Shown: one piece after another, positions 6,697 to 20,115 of the stretch
How the letters are laid out: each line of letters opens with the position of its first letter
How positions within the stretch are numbered: position 1 is the first letter of the stretch
Sequence record: NC_028831.1
DNA: 61,235 nt
Origin: Escherichia phage slur01
Strand: one strand, 5' to 3'
Translations under genes and position numbers: made by a program
The notes under the pieces: model-generated
Database searches by the model: none
What the model saw: only the letters and a program-made list of their open reading frames with translations
Told to the model about the DNA's origin: nothing

Positions 6697-6729
6697 ACAA
6701 AAAAGCCCAGGCATAAGGATTCCTGGGCT
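6697..6729 (-). terminator. Rho-independent terminator (minus strand)
   Basis: Stem GCCCAGG/CCTGGGC followed by TTTTTTGTT on the minus strand. Confidence 0.6.
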
Positions 6730-7040
6730 CTCTTGATTGTCGGATAGCTTACTTTGACTGCCGTCTTCGTCTATCCTGGCCTACTTGTACAGCCTCGCCA
6801 AAGGCTGGTGACGGTTTGGTACATCTGGCGCCGTCGCGTTAAACATCGTTCACATCGTTCAGTAAGTTGCGGGTTTACCCTGTCCGCTCCAGGAAGCCTA
6901 GCGAAAGTAGTTGCTGTAAGGAGGTACAGCTACCGCTTTCAAGGGCTGAGTTAAGCATCGTTCACTAAGTTAATGTTGTTAAATTGTTAAACCTCGTTAA
7001 CTGTGGTTATCTTAAAGGATGCAGTCTTGAATGGCAAGCT

Positions 7041-7346
7041 TCAATTTTGCGCGGTTCCCTTTGCCGCTTTTGGTGCTAAAGTACCATCATTTAACATCAA
7101 CTCAAAACCTTGTACTTCATAAGTTGGAACAATAGCATAGCCCATGATTGTAAGTACAATAGATTCATCCTCACGACGCGGATAATAAATATGACACCAA
7201 TGAGGAAAAGCATTGTCGTGACGAATCTCTGCATAAGTTTTATGATCAACCAAAATCTTTTGGATTTGGTTATTGTCCTCATTATTTACATTTTCACGGA
7301 TAAGCTCCGCATAAATTGCTTCACAGATAGTATTTACAATGCTCAT
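7041..7346 (-). CDS. hypothetical protein
   Basis: 101-aa ORF with strong RBS GGAGGTG. Confidence 0.55.
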   Translation of the reverse strand: MSIVNTICEAIYAELIRENVNNEDNNQIQKILVDHKTYAEIRHDNAFPHWCHIYYPRREDESIVLTIMGYAIVPTYEVQGFELMLNDGTLAPKAAKGTAQN

Positions 7347-7585
7347 TTTAACACCTCCAACGGACGAAGTAGTTTATAGTGATTTGTTGCAACCCCGCCA
7401 GTGTTATTATATTTCTTCATAACACTGATGAACCCTTTTTGCCGAAGACTTCTTATACAGCTTGATATCATTGTCTGTTGCAATCCTGTAATTTTAGCCA
7501 ATTTTGCATAACTTATGACAATCTCGTTATTAACACGAGGAGCAAATTTTAATGCTTTATATACTAAAATATCATAAGGACACAT
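7343..7585 (-). CDS. Small winged-helix/HTH DNA-binding protein
   Basis: HTH-like segment ISYAKLAKITGLQQTMISSCIRSLRQKGF; start re-picked at ATG preceded by GAGGTG (track ORF runs to 7759 with no RBS). Confidence 0.45.
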   Translation of the reverse strand: MCPYDILVYKALKFAPRVNNEIVISYAKLAKITGLQQTMISSCIRSLRQKGFISVMKKYNNTGGVATNHYKLLRPLEVLK

Positions 7586-7826
7586 TTCACACCTCATAGA
7601 ATGTACATAAACCAGAAATAACCAGCTACGAAAATAGCACCCGCAAATAATTTTAAAAGCTCGAACATTGTTCCCTCCGTCAACTTTATGCTGTAAGTAT
7701 AGCAGGACTTGCGATGTATGCAACAACTTTAGACTTGAAATACATCTATGAAATAGCACGATTTGCCTTTACCTCTGATCCGTCTAGCTGTACTATTAAC
7801 CCATAAACAGAGCGGAGGATTACAAA

Positions 7827-8051
7827 ATGGTCATGCTGAATAAAGTATATAGCACAATGGGCGCGGATTATAAAGTTGTACGTCACCCGCGTACTGGTAA
7901 ATTTGAAGCATACATCCGTCCAATGGGTGAAGGTTGGATGTATTACGGTACTTATGATGATGCTGAGCAAGCTTATAAAGAAGCGGAAAGTGCCGCGGAA
8001 GCATCCGAAATTATGGCAAGGTACGACGTCGATGATTACTACCTTAACTAA
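7827..8051 (+). CDS. Stand-alone AP2-like DNA-binding domain protein
   Basis: YKVVRHPRTGKFEAYIRPMGEGWMYYGTYDDAEQAYKEAE fits the AP2 pattern (R-x-x-GK-W-x-A-x-I...G-T-F-x-x-x-E-x-A); RBS GGAGGA; plus-strand gene inside a minus-strand block, followed by a terminator. Confidence 0.55.
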   Translation: MVMLNKVYSTMGADYKVVRHPRTGKFEAYIRPMGEGWMYYGTYDDAEQAYKEAESAAEASEIMARYDVDDYYLN

Positions 8052-8055
8052 CAAT

Positions 8056-8083
8056 AAAGGGCCTTTCGGCCCTTTATTTATTC
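8056..8083. terminator. Bidirectional rho-independent terminator
   Basis: AAAGGGCC-TTTC-GGCCCTTT hairpin flanked by A-run and T-run; lies between the convergent AP2 and primase genes. Confidence 0.7.
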
Positions 8084-10420
8084 CTCTTCTCCTAAGTTTG
8101 CCATAATACCTTCAACATCTTGCGTAATGCGCCAAGCTGCGCCAGTGAATCCCAGTTTGATAGTCTCCTCCCGTGTTACCGGAACAAGTGCACCCATAGC
8201 AACCATTTCCTTGATCGTAGACTCGATCGCTGCGGACAATCCGTGGTGATAGTTTTTAAACGCGGACTTACTTGCAAGACGAGTAGTAATATCACCCCGC
8301 GTGATAATGCCTTCCTTACGCAGATCTACACGTTTAACTTTGACCCAATCTTTAGTTAGATAATTCACACAAACCTGGCACATAGTACGGATACGAGCTT
8401 CGTCATTAGTACCGATACCCCCACTATGCCATTCCTTCATAATGATATCCTGTCCATGACGCACAAAGTCCAAGGCCCATTGAACATGATAGGTCTGCAC
8501 AACCGGATTGATCCAGTTTTCTCCCACAGCTAACAGGGCGGATAGACGTAACACCTTCAGGTGGGCACGGTTCCAGGGCTGACGGATTGCTTCGTCTTTG
8601 GTTGCGTTAATATTACGGTCACATTCGTCGTTAAACTGATCACATAATGCTTCCGCTTCTGGACTAAACTGCACTTCAATACTTTGATGCTTTGCCATTG
8701 CGACTAAGGTGTGGTTAACAAGATGGCACACCATATCCCGCAAATGCTGATCCATTGTAGTCTGCTGGTTCTTGTTTAAAGGTGGTCGATCCCCTTCATA
8801 GCGGACAACATGGAAACGGGATAAGAAACCGTCCTCCATCATTTCACGGGTTAATGCTTCAAAGAACGTATCCGGTGTCGTTTCGCCCATGATGCTATAG
8901 GCCACACCTTGTTGAGCTTCCGTATTATTAGCCTTATCAGAATAAGACATACCACCGACAATAGACATCTGACCGGACTTTTGATAAACATCGGTAAGGT
9001 CGTTCTTGAAGCTTTGCATCGGTGAACCTGCTGGCGCCGTAGCCATTGCTTTAATAATCTTACCAAACTCACCGTTCAAGTTGATAAAAGATTGTTTGTC
9101 CGCAAAAGATTTACGCAGTGCAGAGCCGGAAGCACATCGGTCAAAAGATACAAAGCTATGAATCTGCGGAAACGGTTCCTGAAGCTGGCTAACTATATTA
9201 GATAAGCCACTGTTCAACGTTTCTTTACCAACACCAGAACGAGCAATAAGGACAAAATATCCATTAAGACCAGATTGCGGAATCTGCCAGACCTTGCCGC
9301 ATACACCGGCCATAAATCCTAGTGCCGTCACAATAGAAATTTCTTTCACTGGTCGGACGGATGCTTTGTAGATATACTTCGCAAGCTCCCCAGCAAGCCC
9401 CGGCGGCCAGTCAATGGCGGTTGCATCAATAGACGTACTTTCTGCAACTACGGTCTGCCCCTGTGTTGTTTCAACAGTTACGGGCATTTCCGCTACCTGT
9501 TGCATTGCACTGTGTGCCGCTTGCATACGGGCAGCATAATCCCGCGCCAGCGCCGCTACGTTTTCCTGGGCAATGCGCTCACGCTCCATGCGACCGCGAC
9601 ACATACGCAAGCAACGGTCAATATGAACATTGTTCTTATTAGCCTTCTCACGTTTGCCCAGTGCGCTATAACGGAACAGACGACGACATTGCTCATTACT
9701 TTCCGTGTAGAATGCATACATAGAAATAAGGGCAAGGTCTGCTTCAGACTGGGAAGGGAATCCCATTTCAACCCATTCACCGTTAAATAACCGTGCATAC
9801 TTATCGCCGTTATCTGCTTCAAGCGCACGCTGATGAATAGTTGCATCATCTTCTACCGGATCTTTTTCTACCAGTTCAATTTCATATGTCTTGCGCTGAA
9901 GATCAATTTCATTCACAAGCATAGTAAGGTAATGATCACGTTCTGCAACTGGTTTGTTGTAGACGGGATTGCCCGTGCAGATAATAAAACGCTCCTGACT
10001 ATAAACCTCGACACCATCACGTCGACGACCTTTACCGATGTTACCTCTTAACCACAGGTGGACACCCAGGCCTGAGCGACTCACTTCGGTGTAAGTATCG
10101 AATGCAGTCATGATCTGTTCGAAGCGGCGCAACTGTTCCGGCGTCGTGTGCTTTTTGGGATCCGGTTCATTGGTTGCGTTCTTCACATCCAGGTCGATGC
10201 AGGTGAACGGGTCTTGTGCAGTAAGCACGAATCCAATATAAGGTTTATTGAAATGAGCGGCGCAACCTTTGGCAGCTTCAAACGTCATAAGCATATCCGG
10301 ATCGGTAACGTCCGCCGCCATCAAACGTCCAATATCGTTATCCCATACGAGCGGCTTCTTGTCCGCATCGGCCACCGCCCATTGTGGGAAAGCTTTAATT
10401 TCAGCGGGAAACAGTTCCAT
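8078..10420 (-). CDS. Putative DNA primase/replicative helicase (primase-polymerase-like N-terminal domain)
   Basis: 780 aa; N-terminal region resembles bifunctional prim-pol domains; central GYFVLIARSGVGKE P-loop-like segment; strong RBS AGGAGG. Confidence 0.5.
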   Translation of the reverse strand: MELFPAEIKAFPQWAVADADKKPLVWDNDIGRLMAADVTDPDMLMTFEAAKGCAAHFNKPYIGFVLTAQDPFTCIDLDVKNATNEPDPKKHTTPEQLRRFEQIMTAFDTYTEVSRSGLGVHLWLRGNIGKGRRRDGVEVYSQERFIICTGNPVYNKPVAERDHYLTMLVNEIDLQRKTYEIELVEKDPVEDDATIHQRALEADNGDKYARLFNGEWVEMGFPSQSEADLALISMYAFYTESNEQCRRLFRYSALGKREKANKNNVHIDRCLRMCRGRMERERIAQENVAALARDYAARMQAAHSAMQQVAEMPVTVETTQGQTVVAESTSIDATAIDWPPGLAGELAKYIYKASVRPVKEISIVTALGFMAGVCGKVWQIPQSGLNGYFVLIARSGVGKETLNSGLSNIVSQLQEPFPQIHSFVSFDRCASGSALRKSFADKQSFINLNGEFGKIIKAMATAPAGSPMQSFKNDLTDVYQKSGQMSIVGGMSYSDKANNTEAQQGVAYSIMGETTPDTFFEALTREMMEDGFLSRFHVVRYEGDRPPLNKNQQTTMDQHLRDMVCHLVNHTLVAMAKHQSIEVQFSPEAEALCDQFNDECDRNINATKDEAIRQPWNRAHLKVLRLSALLAVGENWINPVVQTYHVQWALDFVRHGQDIIMKEWHSGGIGTNDEARIRTMCQVCVNYLTKDWVKVKRVDLRKEGIITRGDITTRLASKSAFKNYHHGLSAAIESTIKEMVAMGALVPVTREETIKLGFTGAAWRITQDVEGIMANLGEEE

Positions 10421-10426
10421 ATTAAA

Positions 10427-10630
10427 TTAAGACCTCCTACGCTTATCGCCTTGCATTGCTATAAGTGCTGGCTCAGCAATTTCGCGCACGTATACAAATA
10501 CGTTAGCGATACGAACAGCTCCAGGAAGTATATCTCGATTGCGGCACAACTTATAACGACTAACCCCGAAACGGGCTTCAATCTCTGATGTGGTTATATA
10601 CTTAGCATCAAACTCGTCTTGTGCAGTCAT
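10427..10630 (-). CDS. Small HTH DNA-binding protein (AlpA/excisionase-like)
   Basis: ITTSEIEARFGVSRYKLCRNRD helix-turn-helix; RBS AGGAGG. Confidence 0.55.
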   Translation of the reverse strand: MTAQDEFDAKYITTSEIEARFGVSRYKLCRNRDILPGAVRIANVFVYVREIAEPALIAMQGDKRRRS

Positions 10631-10691
10631 AGCTCCTCCTTTGTCCGCACACTATACACAGATAAGAGGAGCCATTGCAACCAAATTTGCA

Positions 10692-11474
10692 TTATTGCGC
10701 AGCAAAGTTCGCATATCCCATAACGCATTCATATACCTCTTCAGGAGTGCGACCTTCCCGTAGATTTATCATCCATTCGTCCAATTGTCCAAGGCGTTGC
10801 TGAGCCTTCGTGATGTCATGAAACGCTTGCCATGGAAAAAAGTTTCCCCCAGCTAGTGCAACCTCTATGCCCGTAGCGGCGTTGCCATATGCCTTGAGCT
10901 TGCAAACAGGCCAACGTCCACGATTATCCCAAATTACGGGTTCCACGTTTTTATCCGGTCGCGAATACCATCTATTTTTAAGAGATGTGATTTCTTTTTC
11001 CGTTAACTGCTCACCCTTCGCACGCTCATTCTTGGCAAGCCAAACTTTAAACACAGACTCATTATTTTTATCCTTTGTTTGGCAAACCTTAAAAGCATTC
11101 TCATATGGTGCTTCCGGCCCAAACCGTTTGTAGTAGTCAAACTTGCCGCGGAACTTTGCAACTTCTTTAGTTGTAAGTTCACGATTTTCTTTTTCCTTTA
11201 TTTGTTCGCGCACCCATGCCATAAACTTATCACGCTCAGGGTTTTCTTTTTTTGCAGCAGCTTTTCCATGTTTAACTTTAGGCGTCACATCTTGTGCGCT
11301 ATCAAAATAATCCTCAACCATCTTAAGAGCCTGCTCTTTAGTTACCTTTCCGCGAATACGGGAGCACGCTTGCACGACCCAGGCCGCGAAGCACAAATCC
11401 TTAACCACATTTGAGTTGGTGCTGGTCGGCTGTTCCTCCGCCACCGCGTTATTGTTAGTCAGCTCTGTATTCAT
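10692..11474 (-). CDS. hypothetical protein (adjacent to iteron array)
   Basis: Start re-picked at ATG (MNTELTNNN...) preceded by GGAGG; the track start at 11534 is a TTG inside the repeat array. Confidence 0.55.
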   Translation of the reverse strand: MNTELTNNNAVAEEQPTSTNSNVVKDLCFAAWVVQACSRIRGKVTKEQALKMVEDYFDSAQDVTPKVKHGKAAAKKENPERDKFMAWVREQIKEKENRELTTKEVAKFRGKFDYYKRFGPEAPYENAFKVCQTKDKNNESVFKVWLAKNERAKGEQLTEKEITSLKNRWYSRPDKNVEPVIWDNRGRWPVCKLKAYGNAATGIEVALAGGNFFPWQAFHDITKAQQRLGQLDEWMINLREGRTPEEVYECVMGYANFAAQ

Positions 11475-11482
11475 ATAGCCTC

Positions 11483-11770
11483 CGATAGGGTATTGCCTTA
11501 ACCCTATGGTAAGACCCTCCCTATTAAATTGCAAGAGTTATTGTAAAACAATAGGTATAGGGTGCAATACAGGGTTCATATAGGGTAACCCTATAAACAC
11601 CCTATAAAATACCCTCCCTATGCAGCTTTCTAAATTTATAGTTTTAGTTTACCCCTTGCGCCCCCGCAGAAAAACTAAAGATAGGGGTACTAGGGTATAA
11701 CAATGGCAAATACCCTATACCCTACTCCCTATACTATGATTCTAAAAAATTTGGTGTATACCCCTATAAA
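11483..11770. repeat. Array of at least 12 CCCTATA/TATAGGG heptamer iterons in both orientations
   Basis: Repeated TATAGGG and CCCTATA in direct and inverted arrangements, e.g. TATAGGGTAACCCTATA; followed by an AT-rich tract (11771..11940). Confidence 0.7.
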
Positions 11771-12106
11771 CTTATAAACTTTCAGTCAACTAACTAAAAT
11801 AAACCTAATTAAACTAATATTAATAATAACTATAAATATATATAAAATAAGGATTTATTATTATTGTATATAGTACCTATTGGTATTATGTGATGAGTTT
11901 ATAGTCACTAAATAAACTCTATAAATTTTAATAAACCTGAACGGATGCAGATCAAAAATGAGAAGTCAAGTGCTTTTGAGGGAAATTTATTGAACTATTG
12001 TGATCGGATGGTATATCAAGCTATAATGCGCTTAATCGCGGGATATTGGAGGAGGACTTTATTGCGCGGTTAACCGGACCAGTAGGAGGGCTGGCCCGGA
12101 AGTAGT

Positions 12107-12433
12107 TTAGAGTTGTACAGGTGTGAAGTGGGCTAGCGTATCGTCGGACATAATACCCGACAGTTTTTCGCTTACCCATTCGGACCAAATACTATCCGGT
12201 TCCTGGCGGTGTACAAACCAGATCTCGGATGTGCCTTCTTTGCGCATCGGTTGCACTTCTGCAAGGAACTTGTCCTGCATGAGGCGGGTGAAGCAGACGC
12301 TGGTCATTGGAACTGGCTTTTCGTCTTTATTGTAATAAGGGACCAATATTTTATTTCCGAAGTCGGCAACTTCATAAACCGTTCCTTTACGTAGACCTCT
12401 GATGTCTGTGTAAGAGCGGATAAATGTTCTCAT
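12107..12433 (-). CDS. hypothetical protein
   Basis: Start at ATG with AGGAG RBS (track uses an upstream GTG at 12439). Confidence 0.5.
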   Translation of the reverse strand: MRTFIRSYTDIRGLRKGTVYEVADFGNKILVPYYNKDEKPVPMTSVCFTRLMQDKFLAEVQPMRKEGTSEIWFVHRQEPDSIWSEWVSEKLSGIMSDDTLAHFTPVQL

Positions 12434-12483
12434 GTTCACTCCTAGGGCTCCCGCAGAAGCCCGTTGGTTGATGTGGTTATGGA

Positions 12484-13098
12484 TTATGCGTCCAGTCCGT
12501 TATATTTGCGCCAGGCGTAGAACTGAATGGCGACCGTTGTCCCGTTGTAAGAAGGCATTGCAGCTTTCATTTCTTTCAGCTCCGGCGTGCGGCCCAGTTC
12601 GGCTAAAAGTTTATCGCCCATTGCCCACACGTCGGCGGTTTTTCCTTTCAGAGGCTTGCGAGCGCCATTTTTGAAATCACAGCGAGCAGCTTTTGCATCC
12701 TGTTTTGGTGCGGCAGCTTTTGGCTCTTCAATTTTGATCTCAGAAACCTGCGTGGCAGCTTTTGCGTGTTTCATATCTTTCTCTTCCTCCTGCTCCAGAG
12801 CTTCGAGGCAGCTTTTGACAATTTCCGGATTTACCATTGGGCGCAGTACCGAGACGCTGGCAGCGGGCGCGGCGGTTGGTGCCGGGACTTTCTGCTCCGG
12901 CTGTTGCGCTTTCTTATGGTCGCGCAGCACCTGAAGCACTTCCTTTTCGACGATGTAAAAACCGATCTCGTCCTGATGGATTAACTGTTCGTGTGCGTCG
13001 CGTGCAACCTGGCCCCAGCGAGTTTTGAGGGCGCGGCGTGCATTCGTTTTCATGGTGTAGCGCATTTTGTCCTGTTCGCGGTGAGTTACTTTAGACAT
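12484..13098 (-). CDS. hypothetical protein
   Basis: Start re-picked at MSKVTHREQ with GGAG RBS; Ala/Pro-rich linker in the middle. Confidence 0.5.
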   Translation of the reverse strand: MSKVTHREQDKMRYTMKTNARRALKTRWGQVARDAHEQLIHQDEIGFYIVEKEVLQVLRDHKKAQQPEQKVPAPTAAPAASVSVLRPMVNPEIVKSCLEALEQEEEKDMKHAKAATQVSEIKIEEPKAAAPKQDAKAARCDFKNGARKPLKGKTADVWAMGDKLLAELGRTPELKEMKAAMPSYNGTTVAIQFYAWRKYNGLDA

Positions 13099-13171
13099 GG
13101 TATAGCTCCTTTCGTTAATATTAGTTTGCTTATTACTGCCCACCGTAATGATGAGCAGTGTATAAGAAAAC

Positions 13172-13420
13172 TTATTGCACGATTGCTACGAAATCGGCGG
13201 TTGCGATATCCATGCTTGCGAAAGCAACGATGCTATAGTCGGTGTCGTTGTCCGCGTTAAAAGCTTTGAGGAACTGCTGCACCGCTGCTTTATGGTTAAG
13301 AGTTACGTCGATAGCATAGTCCCAGCTATAGACTTTGCGCTTGCCAAAACCTTTAACTGCAATGCGAGCGCTTTTAGTGTTGGTTGGTGCCAAAAATTTG
13401 GTGACGATAGAAGTAGCCAT
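13172..13420 (-). CDS. hypothetical protein
   Basis: 82-aa ORF with RBS GAGGA. Confidence 0.5.
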   Translation of the reverse strand: MATSIVTKFLAPTNTKSARIAVKGFGKRKVYSWDYAIDVTLNHKAAVQQFLKAFNADNDTDYSIVAFASMDIATADFVAIVQ

Positions 13421-13451
13421 GATGTAATCCTCGTTTTGTTTAAGTTGACTT

Positions 13452-13480
13452 ATTATTGCCCAGTCAGATCAACTAGGCAA
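13452..13480 (-). promoter_or_regulatory. Putative sigma70-type early promoter (TTGCCT-17-AATAAT) for the leftward operon
   Basis: On the minus strand, hexamers TTGCCT and AATAAT with a 17-nt spacer about 30 nt upstream of the 13420 start codon. Confidence 0.3.
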
Positions 13481-13958
13481 GATATAAATCACTTAATTTG
13501 TACTAAATCGTATTCCTTGTAGATGTCGCTAATGTACATATCAAACTGACCCATTAAGAAGATTTCGGCCTCCTCCCAGCTTGGGGCAGATACATAACCA
13601 GCTATTTACCGGAGGCGAGTTCCACTAATTTGAATTCCATGATGCAACCTTAATGTGGTTAAGCAGTATTGCTTTGTTGAAGTAATAATAGCCTTGCATC
13701 GTGATATTGAATAGGCCAAAAGTGCTCTTTTAGAATTGTTTTGCATCTAGTGAAAAATACGCTTGCCCTGCATGTTTAGCACTAATGGCCTAACTAACAT
13801 CACATTATCTGGAGTATTCGCGCGGGCGCACACATACATATAAAGCTGCCAAAATATTTTTATAAAAAGATGCAAAAAGGTGTAGACATATGATCGGTCT
13901 AGCATTACTATATACACATACCGCAAGGTACTACAAATTAACTTAAAGGGTACACATT

Positions 13959-14243
13959 ATGTCCATCGTCACTATGTCGTTCTTCGACCATTGCAATAAC
14001 GAAAAACAAATTATCGTTAACCTGCAAAAAGGGTTTGTTGTCGCACGCAATGCTAACCGCCAATGCATCGCGCTAACCGATTTTGCTTTCCGCCTTAACG
14101 TGGACAACACCACCGCTAAAAATATCGTTCACGATACAGCGTTGGAAGCTGCTCACGCTGCGAAGGATAAAGGTATCCGTGCCGCACGCGAGATTATGCA
14201 CAAGGCGCTCGGCGTCACGTTCTTCGTTGGGATTAAGGGGTAA
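13959..14243 (+). CDS. hypothetical protein (first gene of rightward block)
   Basis: 94-aa ORF at the head of the plus-strand block after a divergent intergenic region. Confidence 0.5.
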   Translation: MSIVTMSFFDHCNNEKQIIVNLQKGFVVARNANRQCIALTDFAFRLNVDNTTAKNIVHDTALEAAHAAKDKGIRAAREIMHKALGVTFFVGIKG

Positions 14244-14248
14244 CTACT

Positions 14249-14392
14249 ATGTCACGCAAATACACGCTTACACGCGCACAGCACGCGTTATTATTGCAGG
14301 TTATGCGCATGGAGTACGAAGAGACTACATGGGCACAAGCTATGCAGACAGGGCGCGAGTTCTACGCGCAACTAATAGCACAAAATGCCTAG
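14249..14392 (+). CDS. hypothetical small protein (47 aa)
   Basis: ATG preceded by AAGGGG; below the ORF-track size cutoff. Confidence 0.3.
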   Translation: MSRKYTLTRAQHALLLQVMRMEYEETTWAQAMQTGREFYAQLIAQNA

Positions 14393-14451
14393 ACAACATG
14401 ATCGGTCTGGTGGATACTACACACATCAACCAAACAACGGGGGTAAACAAA

Positions 14452-14679
14452 ATGCGTAGTTTCAAATGTGTAAGCGTAAATACTACTGGTAACGGTCTGT
14501 TCACGGCAGGTAATGTATATGACTTCAACATGGAAAGTTATAAAGACACAACGCTTACAGGTGTAATGTTCGGTGGCGCTCGTGTCGTTCGCTGCCATTT
14601 AAACAAGAACACGGAAAATGAATATACCCTTATCAGTCGCTACACGGGCGAGCCGTTAGCTGTGTTCCATGCAGCTTAA
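14452..14679 (+). CDS. hypothetical protein
   Basis: ATG preceded by GGGGG; the track's longer 14083..14679 ORF has no plausible upstream start. Confidence 0.45.
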   Translation: MRSFKCVSVNTTGNGLFTAGNVYDFNMESYKDTTLTGVMFGGARVVRCHLNKNTENEYTLISRYTGEPLAVFHAA

Positions 14680-15143
14680 GCTATAACGCACACAGCGCCG
14701 CGCTAGCGAGCTAATGTACATAGGTAATGGTAATGCATTAGCTCGGGCGAAACAGGCGCACAGCGTCGCGCACAGCTCGCACAGCGCACACAGACCCACG
14801 CAGGCCCAGCCGCGCAACCCGACCCATCCTTTTCCAGGTACTTGGATCGCTGGGGCGTGCCCTGTCCATCCTGATAGTATCCTTGTTTGAAAATCTAACT
14901 CGTCAACTATGTTGTTGCCGACATACGCACCCATCACATCCCTGTCCACCTACATCCATGACCCCACCTACCTTCTTTTTGAATATATTACACTCATCCT
15001 TTCTAAATATATGGATTTTGGTAGTAAATTCTGAGTCGTCAACGTATAATTCGTCTTGTAGCTGCTCCATAGCTATCATCTTTAAGCGGATGCAACCAAT
15101 TTCTATCAATTCTTACCAGTTTTACAGCATCAAGGAGGTATTT

Positions 15144-15401
15144 ATGTGCGACTCCAGTGCAAGCGCTACACCCAGCACCTCCAGCAATGTGGTTACAGAG
15201 GTAAATGCAATGCGATTAGGTCCATATCGCGGCTATTATGGTCGGGCAGCATGGAATGACGCTACTCAACGTTTTGAAGGCTGGATTATCTGTCCGGAAC
15301 GTGTTAAATTTCACTCCGTAAAAGAGAAAAATATCGTTCTTAATTTTCAAAAATGTGTCACTAAATATGTAGAGGAGCAAGAAGAATGTCTTATCAATTA
15401 G
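15144..15401 (+). CDS. hypothetical protein
   Basis: ATG preceded by AGGAGG; the track start at 14883 lies in a non-coding repeat region. Confidence 0.55.
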   Translation: MCDSSASATPSTSSNVVTEVNAMRLGPYRGYYGRAAWNDATQRFEGWIICPERVKFHSVKEKNIVLNFQKCVTKYVEEQEECLIN

Positions 15402-15748
15402 CTTTAGAAGCTGCCGGATGCGAAGTATTAGATTATGTTGAATACGGCTGCTATCAAGGTGAGTGGCTTGCATTGATCCGCAAGGACGGCGCTTTGGGAG
15501 TTTGCGAAGGGTCTTATGGTTCCTGCTTAGGTTGCGATGCATTTGAGGCTGAATTTGGTTATTTAGATGATGAGGAAGCGGATTACCAGAAACGTCTTGC
15601 AGATTTTGGAGAAGGTTACTTACCCGCAAATACTTTTGAAGAGATGATTGCTAAGCTTCAGAAGGATGTTGAAAACTATTCATACGATGACGATTATAAG
15701 TCAATGTTGAATACAGTTATTAACTGGCAAAAGCAATACGGGGTTTAA
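15386..15748 (+). CDS. hypothetical acidic Cys-containing protein
   Basis: 120 aa, acidic, with GSYGSCLGCDAFE segment; RBS GAGGAG. Confidence 0.55.
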   Translation: MSYQLALEAAGCEVLDYVEYGCYQGEWLALIRKDGALGVCEGSYGSCLGCDAFEAEFGYLDDEEADYQKRLADFGEGYLPANTFEEMIAKLQKDVENYSYDDDYKSMLNTVINWQKQYGV

Positions 15749-15749
15749 G

Positions 15750-15989
15750 ATGCGTTTAAAGTATAAGCAAAAGATTGTAGAATACTTCGGGATGCAACTT
15801 GTTGTCCCTGAATGGGTTAAATGGCTTGCTGTCGATGGTGATGGGGAGCTGTACGGTTACGAATGCGAGCCTGATATCTTAGTTGATGAACCGTGGGACG
15901 AATGGTACACAGAAGAAGGTAAATGTTACCGCATTACAGAAGTAGTTCTTGAAGAACATTGGTCTGAAACCTTAGTGGAGCTTTTCTAA
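15750..15989 (+). CDS. hypothetical protein, small paralog family member
   Basis: Shares W-x-AVDGDG...Y-x-x-x-P and W...TL motifs with 16333..16629 and 55631..55885. Confidence 0.55.
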   Translation: MRLKYKQKIVEYFGMQLVVPEWVKWLAVDGDGELYGYECEPDILVDEPWDEWYTEEGKCYRITEVVLEEHWSETLVELF

Positions 15990-15990
15990 A

Positions 15991-16281
15991 ATGCACATAG
16001 AAGAGATTGTTGAAGGCAAAGAGTATCGTTTACTGACCGATATTGGTGGTGTTGGGTATACTCCGGATGATGCGGCTTGTTTTAACGTCCTTCCGCAAGG
16101 TGCTATCGTGACAGTTAACAAGGTCGTTACCGATTTATACAGTGTTCATGACGGCAGATGGCCACATGCAGTTATTGTCACCTTCGGTAAAGATGGTTAT
16201 GTGGACCTTGATGGCGAAGACGATACTTACGAAGTTGCGTATACAGGTCTGGTAAGTCCCAATTTCCTGGAAGAAGTATAA
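15991..16281 (+). CDS. hypothetical protein
   Basis: 96-aa ORF, tightly packed with neighbours. Confidence 0.5.
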   Translation: MHIEEIVEGKEYRLLTDIGGVGYTPDDAACFNVLPQGAIVTVNKVVTDLYSVHDGRWPHAVIVTFGKDGYVDLDGEDDTYEVAYTGLVSPNFLEEV

Positions 16282-16332
16282 TTATCAATCTATAATGGGC
16301 TCTACGGAGCCCTTAATTATCTGGAGGCTGTT

Positions 16333-16629
16333 ATGCTGTATTTAGGAATGGACGAAACTGGACACGCGATCCCTTCTGTTAACAAGGAGACGCAAGTATT
16401 TACAGACTATTACGGGTCTGCTATCCCTGTAGAGCCCTGGGCAAACTTTATTGCTGTAGACGCAGACGGTAAAGTTCATTGTTATGACGCCAAACCTTCT
16501 TGCTATGAATCTGGTAAGCAATGGATGCTTGGCGTATACGGTTTGCATGTCCGCTACTGCGGCGAAGTTGACATTGAAGGTGTGGACTGGCGCGATACGT
16601 TGAAGGAGATTAAAGATGTCCGCGGCTGA
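16333..16629 (+). CDS. hypothetical protein, small paralog family member
   Basis: ANFIAVDADGKVHCYDAKP...DWRDTLKEI matches the family motif. Confidence 0.55.
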   Translation: MLYLGMDETGHAIPSVNKETQVFTDYYGSAIPVEPWANFIAVDADGKVHCYDAKPSCYESGKQWMLGVYGLHVRYCGEVDIEGVDWRDTLKEIKDVRG

Positions 16630-16705
16630 AGTTACGACATTTATAATAGCTTTTGCTGTTGCTTTATTCCTTATAGCTAAGTTAGATTTAATGATGGGAT
16701 AGTTT

Positions 16706-16930
16706 ATGCGCTTACTCATGGTGTTAGGTGTTATACTTGCCGCTTTCGTTGTATTTGCAATTGTAGACTCTAAAGAAATGGAGCGGCAAAACTGCCAACG
16801 TACTGGTAACAGCCGGGATGATATTATTTGGCAATATATTTACGATGCAAAAGGTAATGTTATGTCAATGTATCCTCAGGTTATTACTAAGTATGAATAT
16901 AAATGCAATGACCGTAACAGGTGGAGATAA
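16706..16930 (+). CDS. hypothetical membrane protein (one N-terminal TM helix)
   Basis: Hydrophobic N-terminus LLMVLGVILAAFVVFAIV. Confidence 0.5.
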   Translation: MRLLMVLGVILAAFVVFAIVDSKEMERQNCQRTGNSRDDIIWQYIYDAKGNVMSMYPQVITKYEYKCNDRNRWR

Positions 16931-16932
16931 TA

Positions 16933-17286
16933 ATGGAAGTTACTGAAGCTGCTAAACGCATGGTAAAATTCTATGTCGGTTCTGATGCACCTTTAATTCG
17001 CGCTTTTGGTCAGGAACTTTATGTTTTCCAGGGCGATCGAGAGGAGGCTGAAGAAATTGCTCAGGCAATCCTCGATCTGCAAGCAAAAGCGGATCGTGCG
17101 GAAGCCCTTGAAGCCGAATGGCGTGCTCAGGAAGAACGTGCCGAAAATGCTGAAACTGAATTAGTCGACTTGCGTGATCGCTATAGTCAATTGGAAGCTG
17201 TAGCAAAGGACTTCCTGCGTCGTAATAAATATGGTCCTTTGTTCTATCGTGATCTGTATAACCGTTTTAAGGAGATTGTAAAATGA
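16933..17286 (+). CDS. hypothetical coiled-coil protein
   Basis: ATG preceded by GTGGAG; Glu/Ala/Arg-rich heptad-like region. Confidence 0.5.
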   Translation: MEVTEAAKRMVKFYVGSDAPLIRAFGQELYVFQGDREEAEEIAQAILDLQAKADRAEALEAEWRAQEERAENAETELVDLRDRYSQLEAVAKDFLRRNKYGPLFYRDLYNRFKEIVK

Positions 17287-17552
17287 TTACTGCTCAAGAA
17301 GCTCGTGAATTAAGCGATAAGCTGGATATTAGCGAAGATATTGAATTTATCAGTGACAGCATTCGCGTAGCTGCTACAAAGGGATACAATAAAGTATCAC
17401 TGGTAACCAAATACGGCGCTGTTGGCAATCCTGACACTCAAGACCCGACCACTATGAAGATTGCTAAATGGTTAGCTGATTCTGGTTTTACGGTGTTATA
17501 TTATCCTTCAATGGACCAACGTGATAACGAGCGTACTGAGGTAGCATGGTGA
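17283..17552 (+). CDS. hypothetical protein
   Basis: 89-aa ORF; start overlaps the upstream stop. Confidence 0.5.
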   Translation: MITAQEARELSDKLDISEDIEFISDSIRVAATKGYNKVSLVTKYGAVGNPDTQDPTTMKIAKWLADSGFTVLYYPSMDQRDNERTEVAW

Positions 17553-17619
17553 TTGAAGAAAATATCAAATATTGGAAAGGCTTTATTGACGAAATGTTGA
17601 AACCATTGGAGAAGAAATA

Positions 17620-18012
17620 ATGCTATTAGTCGTCACCGGAGGTCGAAATTTTAAGCATGTGGAGTATATTTATGCTCAATTGGATAAGCTGCATATGCAA
17701 AGAAGGATAACCACACTTCGCCACGGTGACGCTGACGGTGTTGACCGCATTTGTGCACAGTGGGCAGAGCGCAACGGTATTAAGACAGAAGCGTTCCCTG
17801 CCCCGTGGGACAATCTTTCCTTACCAAATACCAAGATACGGTATAACGCCAAGGGTGCTTATAATGCACAAGCTGGCGCATACCGTAACCAATTAATGCT
17901 GGATACTGATCCTAAACCAGATCACGCTATTGTGTTTCCTGGCGGAGCTGGTACTATGGATATGTACAGACGGATTAAAGCATCCGGTATCCATTACACA
18001 TTAGCGGAGTAA
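17620..18012 (+). CDS. SLOG/DUF2493-like Rossmann-fold protein
   Basis: Motif series VVTGGRNF, HGDADGVDR, WAERNGI, VFPGGAGTMDM resembles YpsA/DprA-LOG (SLOG) superfamily proteins. Confidence 0.45.
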   Translation: MLLVVTGGRNFKHVEYIYAQLDKLHMQRRITTLRHGDADGVDRICAQWAERNGIKTEAFPAPWDNLSLPNTKIRYNAKGAYNAQAGAYRNQLMLDTDPKPDHAIVFPGGAGTMDMYRRIKASGIHYTLAE

Positions 18013-18015
18013 ATA

Positions 18016-18486
18016 ATGGCTGACGTTAAAACTATTGTTGATGCAATGGACGAATCCAAAGACTGCCAACTGAAGAAGTCGTTTGAAGTAAAACAGGTTA
18101 CAGAGACTCAGTTGGTCTGTAATTTTGCGCGTTATTGTGGACTGGGGCGCGGGAAAGACTGGAACGGGCTTATTGTTATGCCCACATCACAAATCCTCGT
18201 TTACGTTCGCAATATTCTTGAGGATTTATTATATCTTCAGATTGATATCGGTGATGTAGAAATCAATATGACTGCGAGCTCTACCATTGTGGTTAAATGG
18301 CAGTCGGGCGAGACACTGCGTTTGGAAGCGTGCCATTGTGCTAAGAGCCTACACCACCTGCGCGGTTGTCATTACCAGTTCGTTGGGTTTGTACATCCGC
18401 AAGGGTTAAGCGAGCGTACGGCGCTTGTAGCGCGTTTGCTTCTGCGTCCTTATAATAACGAGCCGGAAGTTATATACGAGGCATAA
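18016..18486 (+). CDS. hypothetical protein
   Basis: 156-aa ORF; no motif recognised. Confidence 0.5.
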   Translation: MADVKTIVDAMDESKDCQLKKSFEVKQVTETQLVCNFARYCGLGRGKDWNGLIVMPTSQILVYVRNILEDLLYLQIDIGDVEINMTASSTIVVKWQSGETLRLEACHCAKSLHHLRGCHYQFVGFVHPQGLSERTALVARLLLRPYNNEPEVIYEA

Positions 18487-18487
18487 A

Positions 18488-18913
18488 ATGTCAGTAAATT
18501 TTGTCAAACAGCCAACTTTAAATACATGCGTTTCTGCGTGTTTGGCAATGATCCTTAATAAACCTGTCGAAAAGGTCATTAAGGAATTTCACAGTCGTTA
18601 TTATAACAACTGGGAAATCACTATCAGCGAATATTTGACTAAAAACGGCGTCCCGCATCATTGTTCAGAAGGTGGTGGGCGTGAAACTTTGCATATGGGA
18701 GGTTTGTTCCTGTGCACGGTGCCAAGTCTTAATATTCCTGGCGCATTGCACCAGATTGTGATTGATATGACAGATCACAAGTTTATTGTGCATGATCCAA
18801 TTAAAGGATGGGAAGGTAAAAAGTTCTATGTTGGTCCGGATCAAGATCCTGAAGAGCCTGGAGCTTTTATCATTCATACTTGGGTCAAAGACGTTGAAAT
18901 CCTGCCTTATTAA
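18488..18913 (+). CDS. Putative papain-like (C39-like) cysteine peptidase
   Basis: N-terminal QPTLNTCVSACLAMIL (Gln-Cys arrangement as in C39 peptidases) with a downstream His in FIVHDP. Confidence 0.35.
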   Translation: MSVNFVKQPTLNTCVSACLAMILNKPVEKVIKEFHSRYYNNWEITISEYLTKNGVPHHCSEGGGRETLHMGGLFLCTVPSLNIPGALHQIVIDMTDHKFIVHDPIKGWEGKKFYVGPDQDPEEPGAFIIHTWVKDVEILPY

Positions 18914-18975
18914 TTTTCTTGCTATCACATAACCCTTCATTGTATTGTGTACCCATCGAATAAGAGGGGTACACA

Positions 18976-19161
18976 ATGACCAAACTATACGCCGGATTGT
19001 TTTTATTTGCGACGTTGATGTTCGCTGGGCTTTATACCTATACAGTAGTCGAACAACCTTCCACGGTTATCCGAATCTTTGCAAGTACAGGGCTTTGCAT
19101 CTGTCTTATTCTATTTGTTTTATGCATTGTTATTATCCAAGACCAAAGGAAAATTAAATGA
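18976..19161 (+). CDS. Small membrane protein (two TM helices)
   Basis: Two hydrophobic segments separated by a short loop; RBS GAGGGG. Confidence 0.5.
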   Translation: MTKLYAGLFLFATLMFAGLYTYTVVEQPSTVIRIFASTGLCICLILFVLCIVIIQDQRKIK

Positions 19162-19622
19162 CCACAATTGCGTTTGATGGAAAAGTATTAGCTGCGGACC
19201 GTGGAGTTATGCGCGGGGAAGCTGTGACTGCTTATAAGAAAGTTCATAGCGTGAATGGACATCGTGGACGGTTTTTACTGGGCTTGTGCGGCCTTACAGC
19301 ATTTACCGATCAGGTGTTGCGTTATTTTAATAGCGCGGAACCTGTTAAGTTCCCTGATATTAAACTTTACAGCAAAGATGATGATTACGGGCAAACTTGC
19401 GGTCTTGCTGTCACTCCGGAAGGTACTTGCCATTTTATTTATAATGATGGTACTTTGAGCGAGCCCATGCTGGATGGATGGGGGTCTGAGGGTAGCGGTT
19501 GTGTGTTTGCTGCTGGCGCGTTAGCTGCTGGTGCAAGTGCGAGCGAAGCTATTGAGTTGGCAATTAAACACACCACATGCGCATTCCTGGGAGTTGATAC
19601 AATATCATTTGAGGGTTTTTAA
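19158..19622 (+). CDS. HslV/proteasome-like Ntn-hydrolase peptidase homolog
   Basis: Starts MTTIAFDGKVLAADRGV (Thr directly after Met, as in HslV TTIV...); GWGSEGSGCVFAAGALAAG parallels the HslV GSGG segment. Confidence 0.5.
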   Translation: MTTIAFDGKVLAADRGVMRGEAVTAYKKVHSVNGHRGRFLLGLCGLTAFTDQVLRYFNSAEPVKFPDIKLYSKDDDYGQTCGLAVTPEGTCHFIYNDGTLSEPMLDGWGSEGSGCVFAAGALAAGASASEAIELAIKHTTCAFLGVDTISFEGF

Positions 19623-19623
19623 A

Positions 19624-20115
19624 ATGGAATGGTCTTCCATATTCACTTATTTGGATGGAAAGCTGTTCTGGAAAACTTCTAGAGGTGGTAGAGTTATACC
19701 AGGAGCACTTGCTGGTCATGCTACAAAGAGGGGTTACGTCAAAATACGATGCGGTTGTAGTTTCTATCTAAGGCATCGTATAGTATGGGAAATGCATAAT
19801 GGTTCCATTCCCGAAAATATGCAAATAGATCATATTAATCACGTTCCTGGAGATGATAGGATAGAGAATCTTAGATTAGTTACAAGTACATTAAATAATA
19901 GGAACGTAACCAGATCTAAGCTTAATAAGTCTGGTGTTACTGGTGTTTGCTATCACAAAAGAAATAAAAGATGGATAGCTTATATTAATACACAGGTCGG
20001 TCAAGTAAGACTTGGCTCTTTTATTAATTTTGAAGATGCTGTCAATGCTCGTAAAAATGCTGAGATTGTATATGAATACCACGAGAATCATGGAACTGAA
20101 CGTAAGAGTTTTTGA
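19624..20115 (+). CDS. HNH homing endonuclease with C-terminal AP2 domain
   Basis: HNH core HRIVWEMHNG...IDHINHVPGDDRIENL followed by AP2 segment SGVTGVCYHKRNKRWIAYI...GSFINFEDAVNARKNAE; start re-picked at ATG with GAGGG RBS. Confidence 0.75.
   Translation: MEWSSIFTYLDGKLFWKTSRGGRVIPGALAGHATKRGYVKIRCGCSFYLRHRIVWEMHNGSIPENMQIDHINHVPGDDRIENLRLVTSTLNNRNVTRSKLNKSGVTGVCYHKRNKRWIAYINTQVGQVRLGSFINFEDAVNARKNAEIVYEYHENHGTERKSF

What the first reader, a model, noticed from the sequence alone, without database searches (positions are those of the whole stretch)
13126..13461. Shared upstream motif TGGGCA(A/G)TAATAAG before two leftward early genes
The same 14-nt motif (plus-strand CTTATTA(C/T)TGCCCA at about 13129..13142 and 13448..13461) lies about 30 nt upstream of the start codons of 12484..13098 and 13172..13420. 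It overlaps a plausible -10 hexamer in both cases. This could be a conserved early promoter or operator.
Basis: seen in the sequence. Interest (0 to 1): 0.35.

Follow-up and report, generated by a model that had tools for sequence, protein, structure and literature searches.

The report
Conserved hairpins between phage early genes
The shared 14-base motif is one arm of a conserved hairpin that sits between the first early genes of this Seurat-like E. coli phage and marks the points where small early genes are swapped between related phages; it is not primarily a promoter or operator.

Summary
The window is a Seuratvirus (Queuovirinae) genome, about 95% identical to CAjan and KurtStettler. As a bare 14-mer it is not beyond chance (P about 0.39 among 89 upstream regions).

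Each copy is the 3' strand of a 50-57 nt imperfect hairpin on the sense (minus) strand: T1 13123..13172 and T2 13440..13496. Each starts at the upstream stop codon and ends 8-15 nt before the next Shine-Dalgarno.

- **Homology:** a covariance model built only from other phages' T2 elements finds T1 at E=2.8e-6 and nothing else in 61 kb.
- **Covariation:** across 14 variants, 98% of cells pair and 10 of 14 pairs carry compensatory double changes.
- **Promoter and terminator readings:** there is no U tract. TTGCCT-17-AATAAT exists only in T2, and spacing elsewhere in the family is 14-18.
- **Cassette junctions:** seven relatives lack the 82-aa gene plus T1 and keep one hairpin, and five unrelated small ORFs occupy the slot before T2.

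Best reading: intercistronic mRNA hairpins, possibly RNase III-type processing or stability sites, that also act as cassette junctions resembling T4 PeSLs. The function is untested. This is a modestly interesting new variant of a known kind.

The parts
13440..13496 (-). Element T2, an imperfect hairpin of about 23 bp. The upper stem is 13471..13480 paired with 13456..13465, with loop 13466..13470. There is a 3x2 internal loop, and an AU-rich lower stem that includes the UGA stop (13489..13491) of the upstream small ORF. The covariance-model match spans 13438..13498.
   Evidence: RNA fold -22.7 kcal/mol, z -6.9. CM hits of 84 bits and 84.7 bits with a model that holds no window sequence. Covariation.
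13123..13172 (-). Element T1, an imperfect hairpin of 20 bp. The upper stem is 13150..13159 paired with 13135..13144, with loop 13145..13149. There is a 2x1 internal loop. The lower stem starts at the last base of the UAA stop of the 82-aa gene. The covariance-model match spans 13118..13176.
   Evidence: RNA fold -21.3 kcal/mol, z -7.2. Found at E=2.8e-6 by a model built without it. Its two natural alleles differ by compensatory changes only.
13449..13462 (-). It is the 3' arm of the T2 upper stem, the UA of the internal loop, and the 3' strand of the lower stem.
13129..13142 (-). It occupies the same position within T1. The G that differs from copy 2 pairs with a C, where copy 2 has A paired with U.
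13452..13480 (-). Sigma-70-like match inside T2: TTGCCT (13475..13480), a 17-nt spacer, then AATAAT (13452..13457). The two hexamers lie on the two arms of the hairpin.
   Evidence: 9/12 match; such matches are as frequent in shuffles. The 17-nt spacing is kept in Seurat, STP-SP5, yong3 and Vid5 but not in K4PH164, 9g, T1 or KS_A3.
13172..13420 (-). 82-aa early gene (phrog_3199, unknown function). Together with its leader and T1 (13118..13440) it forms an optional cassette.
   Evidence: PHROG hit at 8e-26. Homologues occur in 201 phage records of several families. The cassette is absent from Seurat, VogelGryff, SA80RD, SHIN8, KS_A3, STP-SP5 and yong3.
12484..13098 (-). 204-aa early gene (phrog_22313, unknown function), the conserved gene downstream of the hairpin(s).
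   Evidence: Homology with cassette-less phages resumes at 13117.
13489..13640 (-). Slot-1 small ORF (MEFKLVELASGK...). It is 50 aa in KurtStettler and SA80RD and is frameshifted here by a 1-nt deletion in the A run at 13605..13607. In other phages this slot holds unrelated ORFs.

Best explanation
The 14-nt motif is the 3' half of a conserved, imperfect hairpin of about 50-57 nt: a 9-10 bp upper stem, a small invariant internal loop (A.. / UA), and an AU-rich lower stem, giving 17-23 bp in total.

The window holds two paralogous copies, T2 and T1, in the sense orientation of the immediate-early leftward operon. Each begins at or just after the stop codon of one small gene and ends 8-15 nt before the Shine-Dalgarno of the next.

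Shown:
- The hairpin is under selection for pairing, not for the TGGGCA sequence.
- The family has 1-3 copies per genome, confined to the immediate-early region of Seuratvirus, Nonagvirus 9g, Klebsiella phage K4PH164 and Pantoea phage Vid5.
- The elements are the conserved islands between exchangeable gene cassettes of the form SD-ORF-hairpin.

Inferred:
- In the mRNA the two-turn helix with an internal loop acts as an intercistronic processing or stability element. The closest anatomy is an RNase III single-cleavage site that leaves a protective 3' hairpin on the upstream message. A weak attenuator is the alternative.
- In the DNA, the conserved flanks provide homology for cassette gain, loss and replacement, as proposed for T4-type PeSLs.
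- T2, but not T1, may additionally carry a functional sigma-70 promoter.

Sub-claim confidence: selected hairpin 0.9; cassette junction 0.8; RNA processing, stability or attenuation as the primary role 0.45; RNase III specifically 0.3.
For: **Structure**
- The elements fold at -21.3 and -22.7 kcal/mol with z of -7.2 and -6.9.
- In 81-84 nt context the sense strand gives z of -3.9 and -4.6, against -1.6 and -1.9 for the antisense strand.

**Covariation**
- In 13 variants, 98.9% of cells pair against 31-58% when partners are slid. Seven of 9 upper-stem pairs have double changes, and 0 of 500 shuffles reach this.
- In 14 variants including the rightward-operon type, Vid5, 9g and K4PH164, 98.0% pair and 10 of 14 pairs have double changes.
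- The two natural T1 alleles differ by 2 double and 3 wobble-compatible changes, none disruptive. KS_A3 has a wholly different 10-bp stem between identical flanks.

**Independent homology of the two copies:** model R2, built without the window and without T1, finds T1 at E=2.8e-6 and nothing else. Models R1 and R3 with filters off find only these two elements in the window.

**Not a canonical terminator:** there is no T run after either stem, and neither is listed by the terminator scan.

**Cassette junction**
- Seven relatives have one T2-type hairpin directly before the 204-aa gene.
- Five unrelated ORFs occupy the slot before T2.
- Homology breakpoints fall in or at the element. The T2 island at 13498..13441 is 72-97% identical while both of its flanks are non-homologous.
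- A near-identical leader-plus-ORFan block (53-aa ORFan 100% identical) is shared by SA126VB and the Hafnia phage yong3, whose neighbouring 204-aa gene products are only 55% identical to the window's protein; the high identity ends inside the hairpin.

**Anatomy fits RNase III substrates:** two helical turns, with internal loops that restrict cleavage to one strand and leave protective 3' hairpins (PMC1540722, read).

**Fits PeSLs:** a stem-loop between or over the -35 and -10 boxes, an SD at the 3' end, elements flanking ORFans, and a single element in the relative that lacks the ORFan (PMC2839356).
Against: - No transcript ends, cleavage sites or reporter data exist for any Seuratvirus in the searched literature, so every functional step is inferred from anatomy.
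- Strand preference is clear for the window's copies: -19.1 against -10.6 and -21.0 against -14.7 kcal/mol. It is not family-wide. Only 10 of 14 variants fold better in sense, and two rightward-operon variants fold much better in antisense. A DNA-level (cruciform or ssDNA) role is therefore not excluded.
- Compensatory changes in a DNA quasi-palindrome can also arise by templated correction rather than selection on RNA.
- The invariant unpaired bases and the conserved TTGCC/GGCAA arms in most members suggest a sequence-specific partner that a plain stability hairpin would not need.
- Unlike PeSLs, the family is low-copy, and only one subtype has promoter-like boxes.
- The cassette-less phages are not simple deletion products of a crossover within the 14-mer. 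SHIN8 and SA80RD carry about 19 extra nt between the two homology blocks.
Confidence: 0.6

Rival explanations
1. Sigma-70 early promoters. Host RNA polymerase would start about 7 nt downstream of the AATAAT or AGTAAT box in each copy, giving each gene its own transcript. In a weaker version only T2 is a promoter, making it a composite promoter plus stem-loop as in T4 PeSLs.
For: T2 has TTGCCT-17-AATAAT (9/12) with an AT-rich stretch upstream. It would give a leader of about 22 nt with a GAGG Shine-Dalgarno. The same 17-nt arrangement recurs in Seurat, STP-SP5, yong3 and Vid5, whose stems differ, and KS_A3 has CTAACA-18-TATAAT. PeSLs place the stem-loop between -35 and -10 in just this way and are active promoters (PMC2839356).
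Against: - T1 has CTGCTC-15-AGTAAT. The G replaces the critical -11 A and covaries with its pairing partner.
- The rightward-operon members have no usable -10. K4PH164 has a 14-nt spacer and 9g a 15-nt spacer.
- The -35 box is simply the complement of the 3' arm, so its conservation is confounded with pairing.
- 9/12 matches are as common in shuffled sequence: 36 sites against 34.8.
- What is invariant across the family is pairing plus the internal loop, not promoter geometry.
Confidence: 0.1
2. Rho-independent terminators or attenuators, as annotated for both homologous sites in the GenBank record of phage SA126VB. These would stop part of the read-through after each small early gene.
For: Both sites are annotated 'rho-independent terminator' in OL960573 by WebGeSTer, and T1 also by TransTermHP. 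They lie immediately after stop codons and have stable 10-bp upper stems. PeSL stem-loops without obvious U tracts reduced reporter expression strongly (PMC2839356).
Against: There is no U tract. After the upper stem comes UAAUAAG, and after the full helix come A-rich leaders. The flanks are U-rich 5' and A-rich 3', the reverse of a terminator, and they pair to extend the helix. The consensus scan lists neither site, although it lists classical terminators elsewhere in the window. Essential downstream genes depend on read-through.
Confidence: 0.12
3. A cis-acting regulatory RNA recognised by a specific factor. Examples would be a nut/put-like antitermination signal or the binding site of a phage or host RNA-binding protein. 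It would be placed after the first cistron of each divergent early operon.
For: - Members occur in sense orientation in both divergent early operons of SA126VB, ECP2304 and yong3, after the first gene, which resembles nutL/nutR topology.
- Unpaired internal-loop bases (A / UA) and the adjacent AUA / AAUA are invariant in all 14 variants.
- The element is about 80% identical between phages whose neighbouring proteins are 24-34% identical.
- The long leftward operon contains many classical terminators.
Against: Apical loops are not conserved in sequence or size (4-7 nt), unlike boxB. No boxA-like partner was found. The window has two copies in one operon and none in the other. There is no Rfam match, and no candidate N-like protein was identified.
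Confidence: 0.08
4. A DNA operator: an inverted repeat bound by a dimeric phage repressor or activator that controls the two genes.
For: The arms form an inverted repeat (TTGCC...GGCAA) that is conserved in most members and overlaps promoter-like boxes in T2. A weak winged-helix signal exists in the 7343..7759 product.
Against: Half-site spacing varies from 22 to 25 nt. KS_A3 and the rightward-operon members have unrelated arms. In the core the two halves differ by G.U-compatible changes in 18 cells, against 2 A.C cells. The 10427..10630 product has no Pfam HTH hit even at E of 1 or less.
Confidence: 0.04

Closest known systems
PeSLs (promoter-early stem-loops) of T4-type myoviruses (Arbiol et al. 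2010, PMC2839356; Comeau et al. 2014, PMC4122927)
   Same: - Intergenic elements that run from a stop codon to the next start and include the SD.
- A stable stem-loop lying between or over sigma-70-like -35 and -10 boxes (T2).
- They flank small ORFs of unknown function in a hypervariable early region.
- A close relative that lacks the ORF has a single element in its place, and homology breakpoints fall inside the element.
   Different: - This is a siphovirus subfamily (Queuovirinae) rather than T4-like phages.
- There are only 1-3 copies per genome rather than dozens.
- Only one subtype (T2) has promoter-like boxes, and these are 9/12 rather than consensus.
- The stems are not polyG/polyC.
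- A long AU-rich lower stem and an invariant internal loop are added.
- No minicircle, promoter or terminator assays exist for these elements.
RNase III processing signals between early genes of phage T7 (R0.3, R1.1 and others) and the lambda N-leader and sib sites
   Same: Intercistronic hairpins in early mRNA made by host RNA polymerase. They have about two helical turns (17-23 bp here) interrupted by a small asymmetric internal loop about 10 bp below the apical loop. This is the anatomy that limits cleavage to one strand and leaves a protective 3' hairpin (PMC1540722).
   Different: There is no sequence similarity and no cleavage data. The proximal and distal box antideterminants were not evaluated. 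The lower stem is very AU-rich and partly mismatched in some family members.
Intrinsic (rho-independent) terminators
   Same: A stable hairpin directly after a stop codon. Both sites are annotated as terminators in GenBank record OL960573.
   Different: There is no 3' U tract. The flanks have the opposite polarity (U-rich 5', A-rich 3') and pair with each other.
Integron attC sites (compared by logic only)
   Same: A structured, imperfect hairpin at the 3' end of each exchangeable gene cassette. Its flanks and its pairing are conserved while the central sequence varies.
   Different: There is no integrase. The conserved flanks read GTTGA...TCAAC rather than RYYYAAC...GTTRRRY. No evidence of site-specific recombination exists. 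Membership is not claimed.

Membership tests
Sigma-70 promoter | -35 and -10 hexamers close to TTGACA and TATAAT, with A at -11 and T at -7 | tested here: inconclusive
   T2 has TTGCCT and AATAAT, 9/12, but such matches are at shuffle frequency (36 against 34.8). T1 has CTGCTC and AGTAAT (G at -11) or TAATAA (A at -7), read.
Sigma-70 promoter | Spacer of 17 +/- 1 bp, conserved among homologous elements | tested here: not met
   The spacer is 17 nt in T2, Seurat, STP-SP5, yong3 and Vid5. It is 18 in KS_A3, 15 in both T1 alleles and 9g, and 14 in K4PH164. The rightward-operon type has no -10.
Sigma-70 promoter | Transcription start about 7 nt downstream of the -10 | not testable with these tools
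   No Seuratvirus transcript mapping was found.
Intrinsic terminator | G+C-rich stem-loop | tested here: met
   10-bp upper stems with 6 (T1) and 5 (T2) G-C pairs.
Intrinsic terminator | Run of U immediately 3' of the stem | tested here: not met
   The 3' sequence is UAAUAAG followed by A-rich leaders. Neither site is in the terminator-like list.
PeSL (T4-type promoter-early stem-loop) | Intergenic element from stop codon to next start, with a stem-loop and a 3' Shine-Dalgarno | tested here: met
PeSL (T4-type promoter-early stem-loop) | Consensus sigma-70 early promoter with an AT-rich upstream region in each element | tested here: not met
   Only T2-type members have promoter-like boxes. T1 and the rightward-operon members do not.
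PeSL (T4-type promoter-early stem-loop) | Elements flank ORFans in a hyperplastic region, and a relative lacking the ORFan has a single element | tested here: met
   The 82-aa gene is flanked by T2 and T1 here. Seurat, VogelGryff, SA80RD, SHIN8, KS_A3, STP-SP5 and yong3 have a single T2-type element. Five unrelated ORFs occupy the upstream slot.
PeSL (T4-type promoter-early stem-loop) | Many dispersed copies per genome | tested here: not met
   There are 2 copies in the window. SA126VB has 3 across the parts scanned (9.6-kb early-region locus plus record positions 1-49000), and 9g has 1 in the first 50 kb of its 56.7-kb record.
PeSL (T4-type promoter-early stem-loop) | Recombination between elements producing excised minicircles; measured promoter and terminator activity | not testable with these tools
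   This needs inverse PCR and reporter assays.
E. coli RNase III substrate | Quasi-continuous double helix of about two turns (about 20-22 bp) | tested here: met
   20 bp in T1 and 23 bp in T2, and 17-20 bp in 13 of 14 family variants. The criterion is from PMC1540722.
E. coli RNase III substrate | Internal loop or bulge that restricts cleavage to one strand | tested here: met
   The internal loop is 3x2 in T2 and 2x1 in T1, lies 10 bp below the apical loop, and has invariant A / UA bases.
E. coli RNase III substrate | Absence of proximal and distal box antideterminant base pairs; actual cleavage that depends on rnc | not tested
   The cleavage site is unknown, so the boxes cannot be placed. 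In vitro cleavage or comparison with an rnc mutant is needed.
Palindromic operator of a dimeric DNA-binding protein | Two half-sites of conserved sequence at fixed spacing | tested here: not met
   Spacing is 22-25 nt. The arms are unrelated in KS_A3 and in the rightward-operon members. Half-sites differ by G.U-type changes.
Lambda-type nut site / HK022 put | Conserved boxB loop with boxA (nut), or a two-stem-loop put structure | tested here: not met
   The element is a single hairpin. Loops vary in sequence and length from 4 to 7 nt. There is no Rfam hit.
Any curated RNA family (Rfam 15) | Score at or above the gathering threshold | tested here: not met
   There were 0 hits in the window at gathering thresholds. 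In 12900..13800 there were only chance-level hits, with E of 0.24 and 6.

The most novel reading that the evidence does not exclude
The hairpin could be a dedicated, structure-specific exchange signal for immediate-early gene cassettes. It would resemble an integron attC site in logic: one imperfect hairpin at the 3' end of each SD-ORF cassette, with conserved flanks and pairing but a free central sequence. A phage or host recombination or repair enzyme would recognise it as folded DNA. This would actively drive the swapping of small early genes, possibly anti-defence or host-takeover genes, among Seuratvirus, Nonagvirus, Vid5-like and other enterobacterial phages. The alternative is that it merely provides passive homology.
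Probability: 0.06. Interest if true: 0.75.

Novelty: new variant of a known kind. Interest (0 to 1): 0.4.

Why it matters
- **Annotation.** It replaces a plausible but wrong label with a defined element. The promoter/operator reading here, and the 'terminator' label in two GenBank records, give way to a structured element supported by covariation and shared by Queuovirinae and Vid5-like phages. Covariance models for it now exist.
- **Genome evolution.** It marks exactly where the most variable immediate-early genes of these phages are gained, lost and replaced. Such genes are the usual home of anti-defence and host-takeover functions. This extends the PeSL idea of regulatory cassettes as recombination junctions beyond T4-like myoviruses.
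- **Testability.** The BASEL phages Bas22-25 are Seuratviruses, so the predictions can be tested directly: RNase III-dependent ends, promoter activity of T2 only, and excision of the cassette. The element could also serve as a landmark for engineering early-gene insertions.

Tried and rejected
- **Further copies of the motif.** A search at up to 2 mismatches and a gapped signature TTTATA-N22-34-WRTAATAA gave only the known sites plus chance hits inside genes.
- **Whole-window hairpin scan.** The 64-nt sliding-window fold was too unspecific, with more than 600 windows below -17 kcal/mol. It was replaced by intergenic folds and covariance models.
- **First significance simulation.** It timed out and was redone in vectorised form. 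That run showed the bare 14-mer is not significant.
- **Rfam.** Nothing was found.
- **Literature.** No transcript mapping for Seuratviruses was found.
- **Source of the KS_A3 stem.** It occurs only in KS_A3 and KS_S4.
- **Host origin.** There is no match in 5,426 complete E. coli genomes.
- **Simple-deletion model.** A crossover within the 14-mer producing the cassette-less phages was rejected, because SHIN8 and SA80RD keep about 19 nt that neither window flank has.
- **Strictly sense-RNA-specific folding.** This claim was weakened after finding that 4 of 14 variants fold better in antisense.
- **HTH label for 10427..10630.** No Pfam support.
Full report
**Identity of the window.** The region around the finding is 92-97% identical to Escherichia phages KurtStettler, CAjan, Greed and Seurat, all Seuratvirus (Queuovirinae). 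A crude ORF map shows leftward genes up to about 13.6 kb and rightward genes from about 13.96 kb. The finding therefore lies in the first kilobase of the leftward early operon, next to the divergent control region.

**The observation.** CTTATTACTGCCCA is at 13129..13142 and CTTATTATTGCCCA at 13449..13462. On the sense (minus) strand the motifs end 30 and 28 nt before the ATGs of 12484..13098 and 13172..13420.

No other copy exists at one mismatch or fewer. As a bare 14-mer the similarity is not remarkable. Among the 80-nt upstream regions of 89 ORFs, shuffles give at least one pair with 13/14 identity at a similar offset in 38.5% of trials.

**What the motif belongs to.** Folding the sense strand shows that each motif is the 3' strand of a long imperfect hairpin.
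- T1 spans 13123..13172, with 20 bp, -21.3 kcal/mol and z -7.2.
- T2 spans 13440..13496, with 23 bp, -22.7 kcal/mol and z -6.9.

Each has a 10-bp upper stem, a 5-nt loop, a small internal loop, and an AU-rich lower stem in which UAAUAAG pairs with YUUAU upstream. The lower stem reaches into the stop codon of the preceding ORF. The hairpin ends 8-15 nt before the next Shine-Dalgarno. The single A/G difference between the two motif copies is matched by U/C in the opposite arm.

**Are the two copies really related?** A covariance model built only from T2-type elements of 11 other phages, with no window sequence and no T1, was run with filters off. It finds T2 at 84.7 bits and T1 at 38.1 bits (E=2.8e-6), and nothing else in both strands of the 61-kb window. 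Two other models agree that the window holds exactly two members.

**Comparative evidence for the structure.** Variants were collected from relatives.
- In an alignment of 13 distinct variants, 98.9% of cells form standard pairs, against 31-58% when partners are slid by 1-3 columns. Seven of nine upper-stem pairs show changes on both sides, and no shuffle of 500 reaches the observed values.
- Adding the more distant members gives 98.0% paired and 10 of 14 pairs with double changes.
- The orthologous T1 has two alleles. Window and CAjan carry ACTGCTCATC/GGTGGGCAGT. SLUR25, phiG7 and PLYYY01 carry CTTGCCTACT/GGTAGGCAAT. They differ by two double and three wobble-compatible substitutions and no disruptive one, inside nearly identical flanks.
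- KS_A3 and KS_S4 carry an unrelated perfect 10-bp stem between the same flanks.

So TGGGCA itself is not conserved; its pairing is. What is invariant in all 14 variants is AUA on the 5' side and UAAUA on the 3' side. This includes the unpaired A and UA of the internal loop.

**Distribution.** The family is low-copy and restricted to the immediate-early region.
- The window has two copies.
- SA126VB, ECP2304, yong3 and one IMG/VR contig have a third copy. It lies in sense orientation after the first gene of the rightward operon (CTTATAC-AATGGGCATT-loop-AGTGCCCATT-AATAAGCTAACTAATTATAACGAGG), and its flanks resemble those of T1.
- 9g has one copy in the 50 kb of its 56.7-kb record that was scanned. 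K4PH164 and Pantoea phage Vid5 each have one in the loci examined.
- A marginal hit (E=0.08) lies in front of the 82-aa homologue of rV5.
- There is no match in Rfam and none in 5,426 complete E. coli genomes.

**Cassette junctions.** Seurat, VogelGryff, SA80RD, SHIN8, KS_A3/KS_S4, STP-SP5 and yong3 lack the 82-aa gene and T1. They have a single T2-type hairpin directly before the 204-aa gene. The ORF just upstream of T2 is one of five unrelated small proteins in different phages.

A homology map of the window against seven relatives gives this layout:
- conserved leader, 13760-13648;
- variable slot 1, 13647-13499;
- conserved T2 island, 13498-13441 (72-97% identity);
- optional slot 2, 13440-13118 (leader, 82-aa gene and T1);
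- conserved block from 13117 into the 204-aa gene.

SA126VB and the Hafnia phage yong3 share a near-identical leader-plus-ORFan block, and the high identity stops inside the hairpin. Their neighbouring 204-aa gene products are 99% and 55% identical to the window's protein respectively. The 82-aa gene belongs to phrog_3199 and has homologues in 201 phage records of several families. The unit of exchange is therefore SD-ORF-hairpin.

**Promoter, terminator or operator?**
- *Promoter.* T2 carries TTGCCT-17-AATAAT. The 17-nt spacing recurs in Seurat, STP-SP5, yong3 and Vid5 despite different stems, so promoter activity of T2 cannot be dismissed. However, the -35 is just the complement of the 3' arm, and 9/12 matches are as frequent in shuffled sequence (36 against 34.8). 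T1 has CTGCTC-15-AGTAAT, the rightward-operon type has no -10, and K4PH164 and 9g have spacers of 14 and 15 nt.
- *Terminator.* The SA126VB record labels both sites as rho-independent terminators. There is no U tract, the flanks have the opposite polarity and pair with each other, and the consensus scan does not list them. Classical terminators are easy to see elsewhere in the window.
- *Operator.* A dimeric-protein operator is contradicted by variable half-site spacing (22-25 nt), by unrelated arms in some members, and by 18 G.U cells against 2 A.C cells in the core.

**Most likely mechanism.** The anatomy is a two-turn helix with a small internal loop about 10 bp below the apical loop, placed between cistrons of an early host-polymerase transcript. 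This is the anatomy of E. coli RNase III single-cleavage substrates, which leave a protective 3' hairpin on the upstream message (PMC1540722). I therefore rank an mRNA processing, stability or attenuation role first, with RNase III as the most specific guess.

The combination of a stem-loop, sometimes with promoter boxes on its arms, an SD at the 3' end, flanking of ORFans, and a single element in relatives that lack the ORFan matches the PeSLs of T4-type phages (PMC2839356; PMC4122927). Those are proposed to mediate modular shuffling by recombination. The differences are the low copy number, the inconsistent promoter, and the extended AU-rich lower stem with an invariant loop.

**Caveats.**
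- No experimental transcript data exist for this genus.
- The window's two copies fold much better in sense than in antisense, but only 10 of 14 family variants do. A DNA-level role (cruciform or ssDNA), or templated quasi-palindrome correction as the source of the double changes, is not excluded.
- The invariant unpaired bases hint at a specific partner that remains unidentified.

**Verdict.** It is a conserved structured intergenic element, a new low-copy variant of the PeSL or intercistronic-hairpin kind, and not a shared promoter or operator motif. Interest is moderate.

Noticed in passing
window 13489..13640 (-), A run at 13605..13607: The small first ORF of the leftward operon is 50 aa in KurtStettler and SA80RD (MEFKLVELASGKIAGYV...). 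Here it is broken by a 1-nt deletion in an A run (AAAA to AAA), giving a stop after 12 codons. This is either a pseudogene or a homopolymer sequencing error.
   Followed up: partly
window 11485..11735, within the 632-nt gap 11475..12106: There are many copies of ACCCTATA / TATAGGGT in both orientations, followed by a very AT-rich stretch (about 11800-11935). They look like iterons and may mark a replication origin or a regulator-binding array.
   Followed up: partly
L001 5361..5419 (+), L014 1634..1692 (-), L012 1678..1736 (-), L003 2860..2919 (-): A third member of the hairpin family sits after the first gene of the rightward early operon in SA126VB, ECP2304, yong3 and an IMG/VR contig. Its flanks resemble T1 and its stem has the G-rich arm on the 5' side. 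The window lacks both this element and that gene.
   Followed up: partly
L001 4580..4744 (-) and L012 2260..2421 (+): The slot-1 ORFan MSNYFNIIYF... is 100% identical in protein between E. coli phage SA126VB and Hafnia phage yong3, within a near-identical DNA block. Their neighbouring 204-aa gene products are 99% and 55% identical to the window's protein. This points to recent horizontal exchange, with one boundary inside the hairpin.
   Followed up: partly
window 12434..12483 (-): A different short hairpin (GGGCUUCUGCGGGAGCCC, 7 bp with a tetraloop) lies directly before the SD of 12107..12433. It has no U tract. It is conserved in KS_A3 and SHIN8, with a similar hairpin at the same place in STP-SP5.
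   Followed up: no
window about 6634..6683, in the gap 6625..7040: An 18-bp, almost purely A/T palindrome (CATAACTTTAATGTAAAA...TTTTATATTAAAGTTATG) lies next to a strong bidirectional-looking terminator at about 6700-6730.
   Followed up: no
L013 (Pantoea phage Vid5, MG948468) 2432..2992: The tblastn match to the 204-aa protein (34% identity, E=6e-17) and the hairpin element upstream of it are on the strand opposite to the annotated CDS Vid5_gp80 and its neighbours. That early region may be annotated on the wrong strand.
   Followed up: no
window 1..61235: The window appears to be a complete or nearly complete, circularly permuted Seuratvirus genome (relatives are 55.6-63.6 kb). The leftward replication and 7-deazaguanine gene block continues across the window ends.
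   Followed up: no
The second has no Pfam hit at all.
   Followed up: partly
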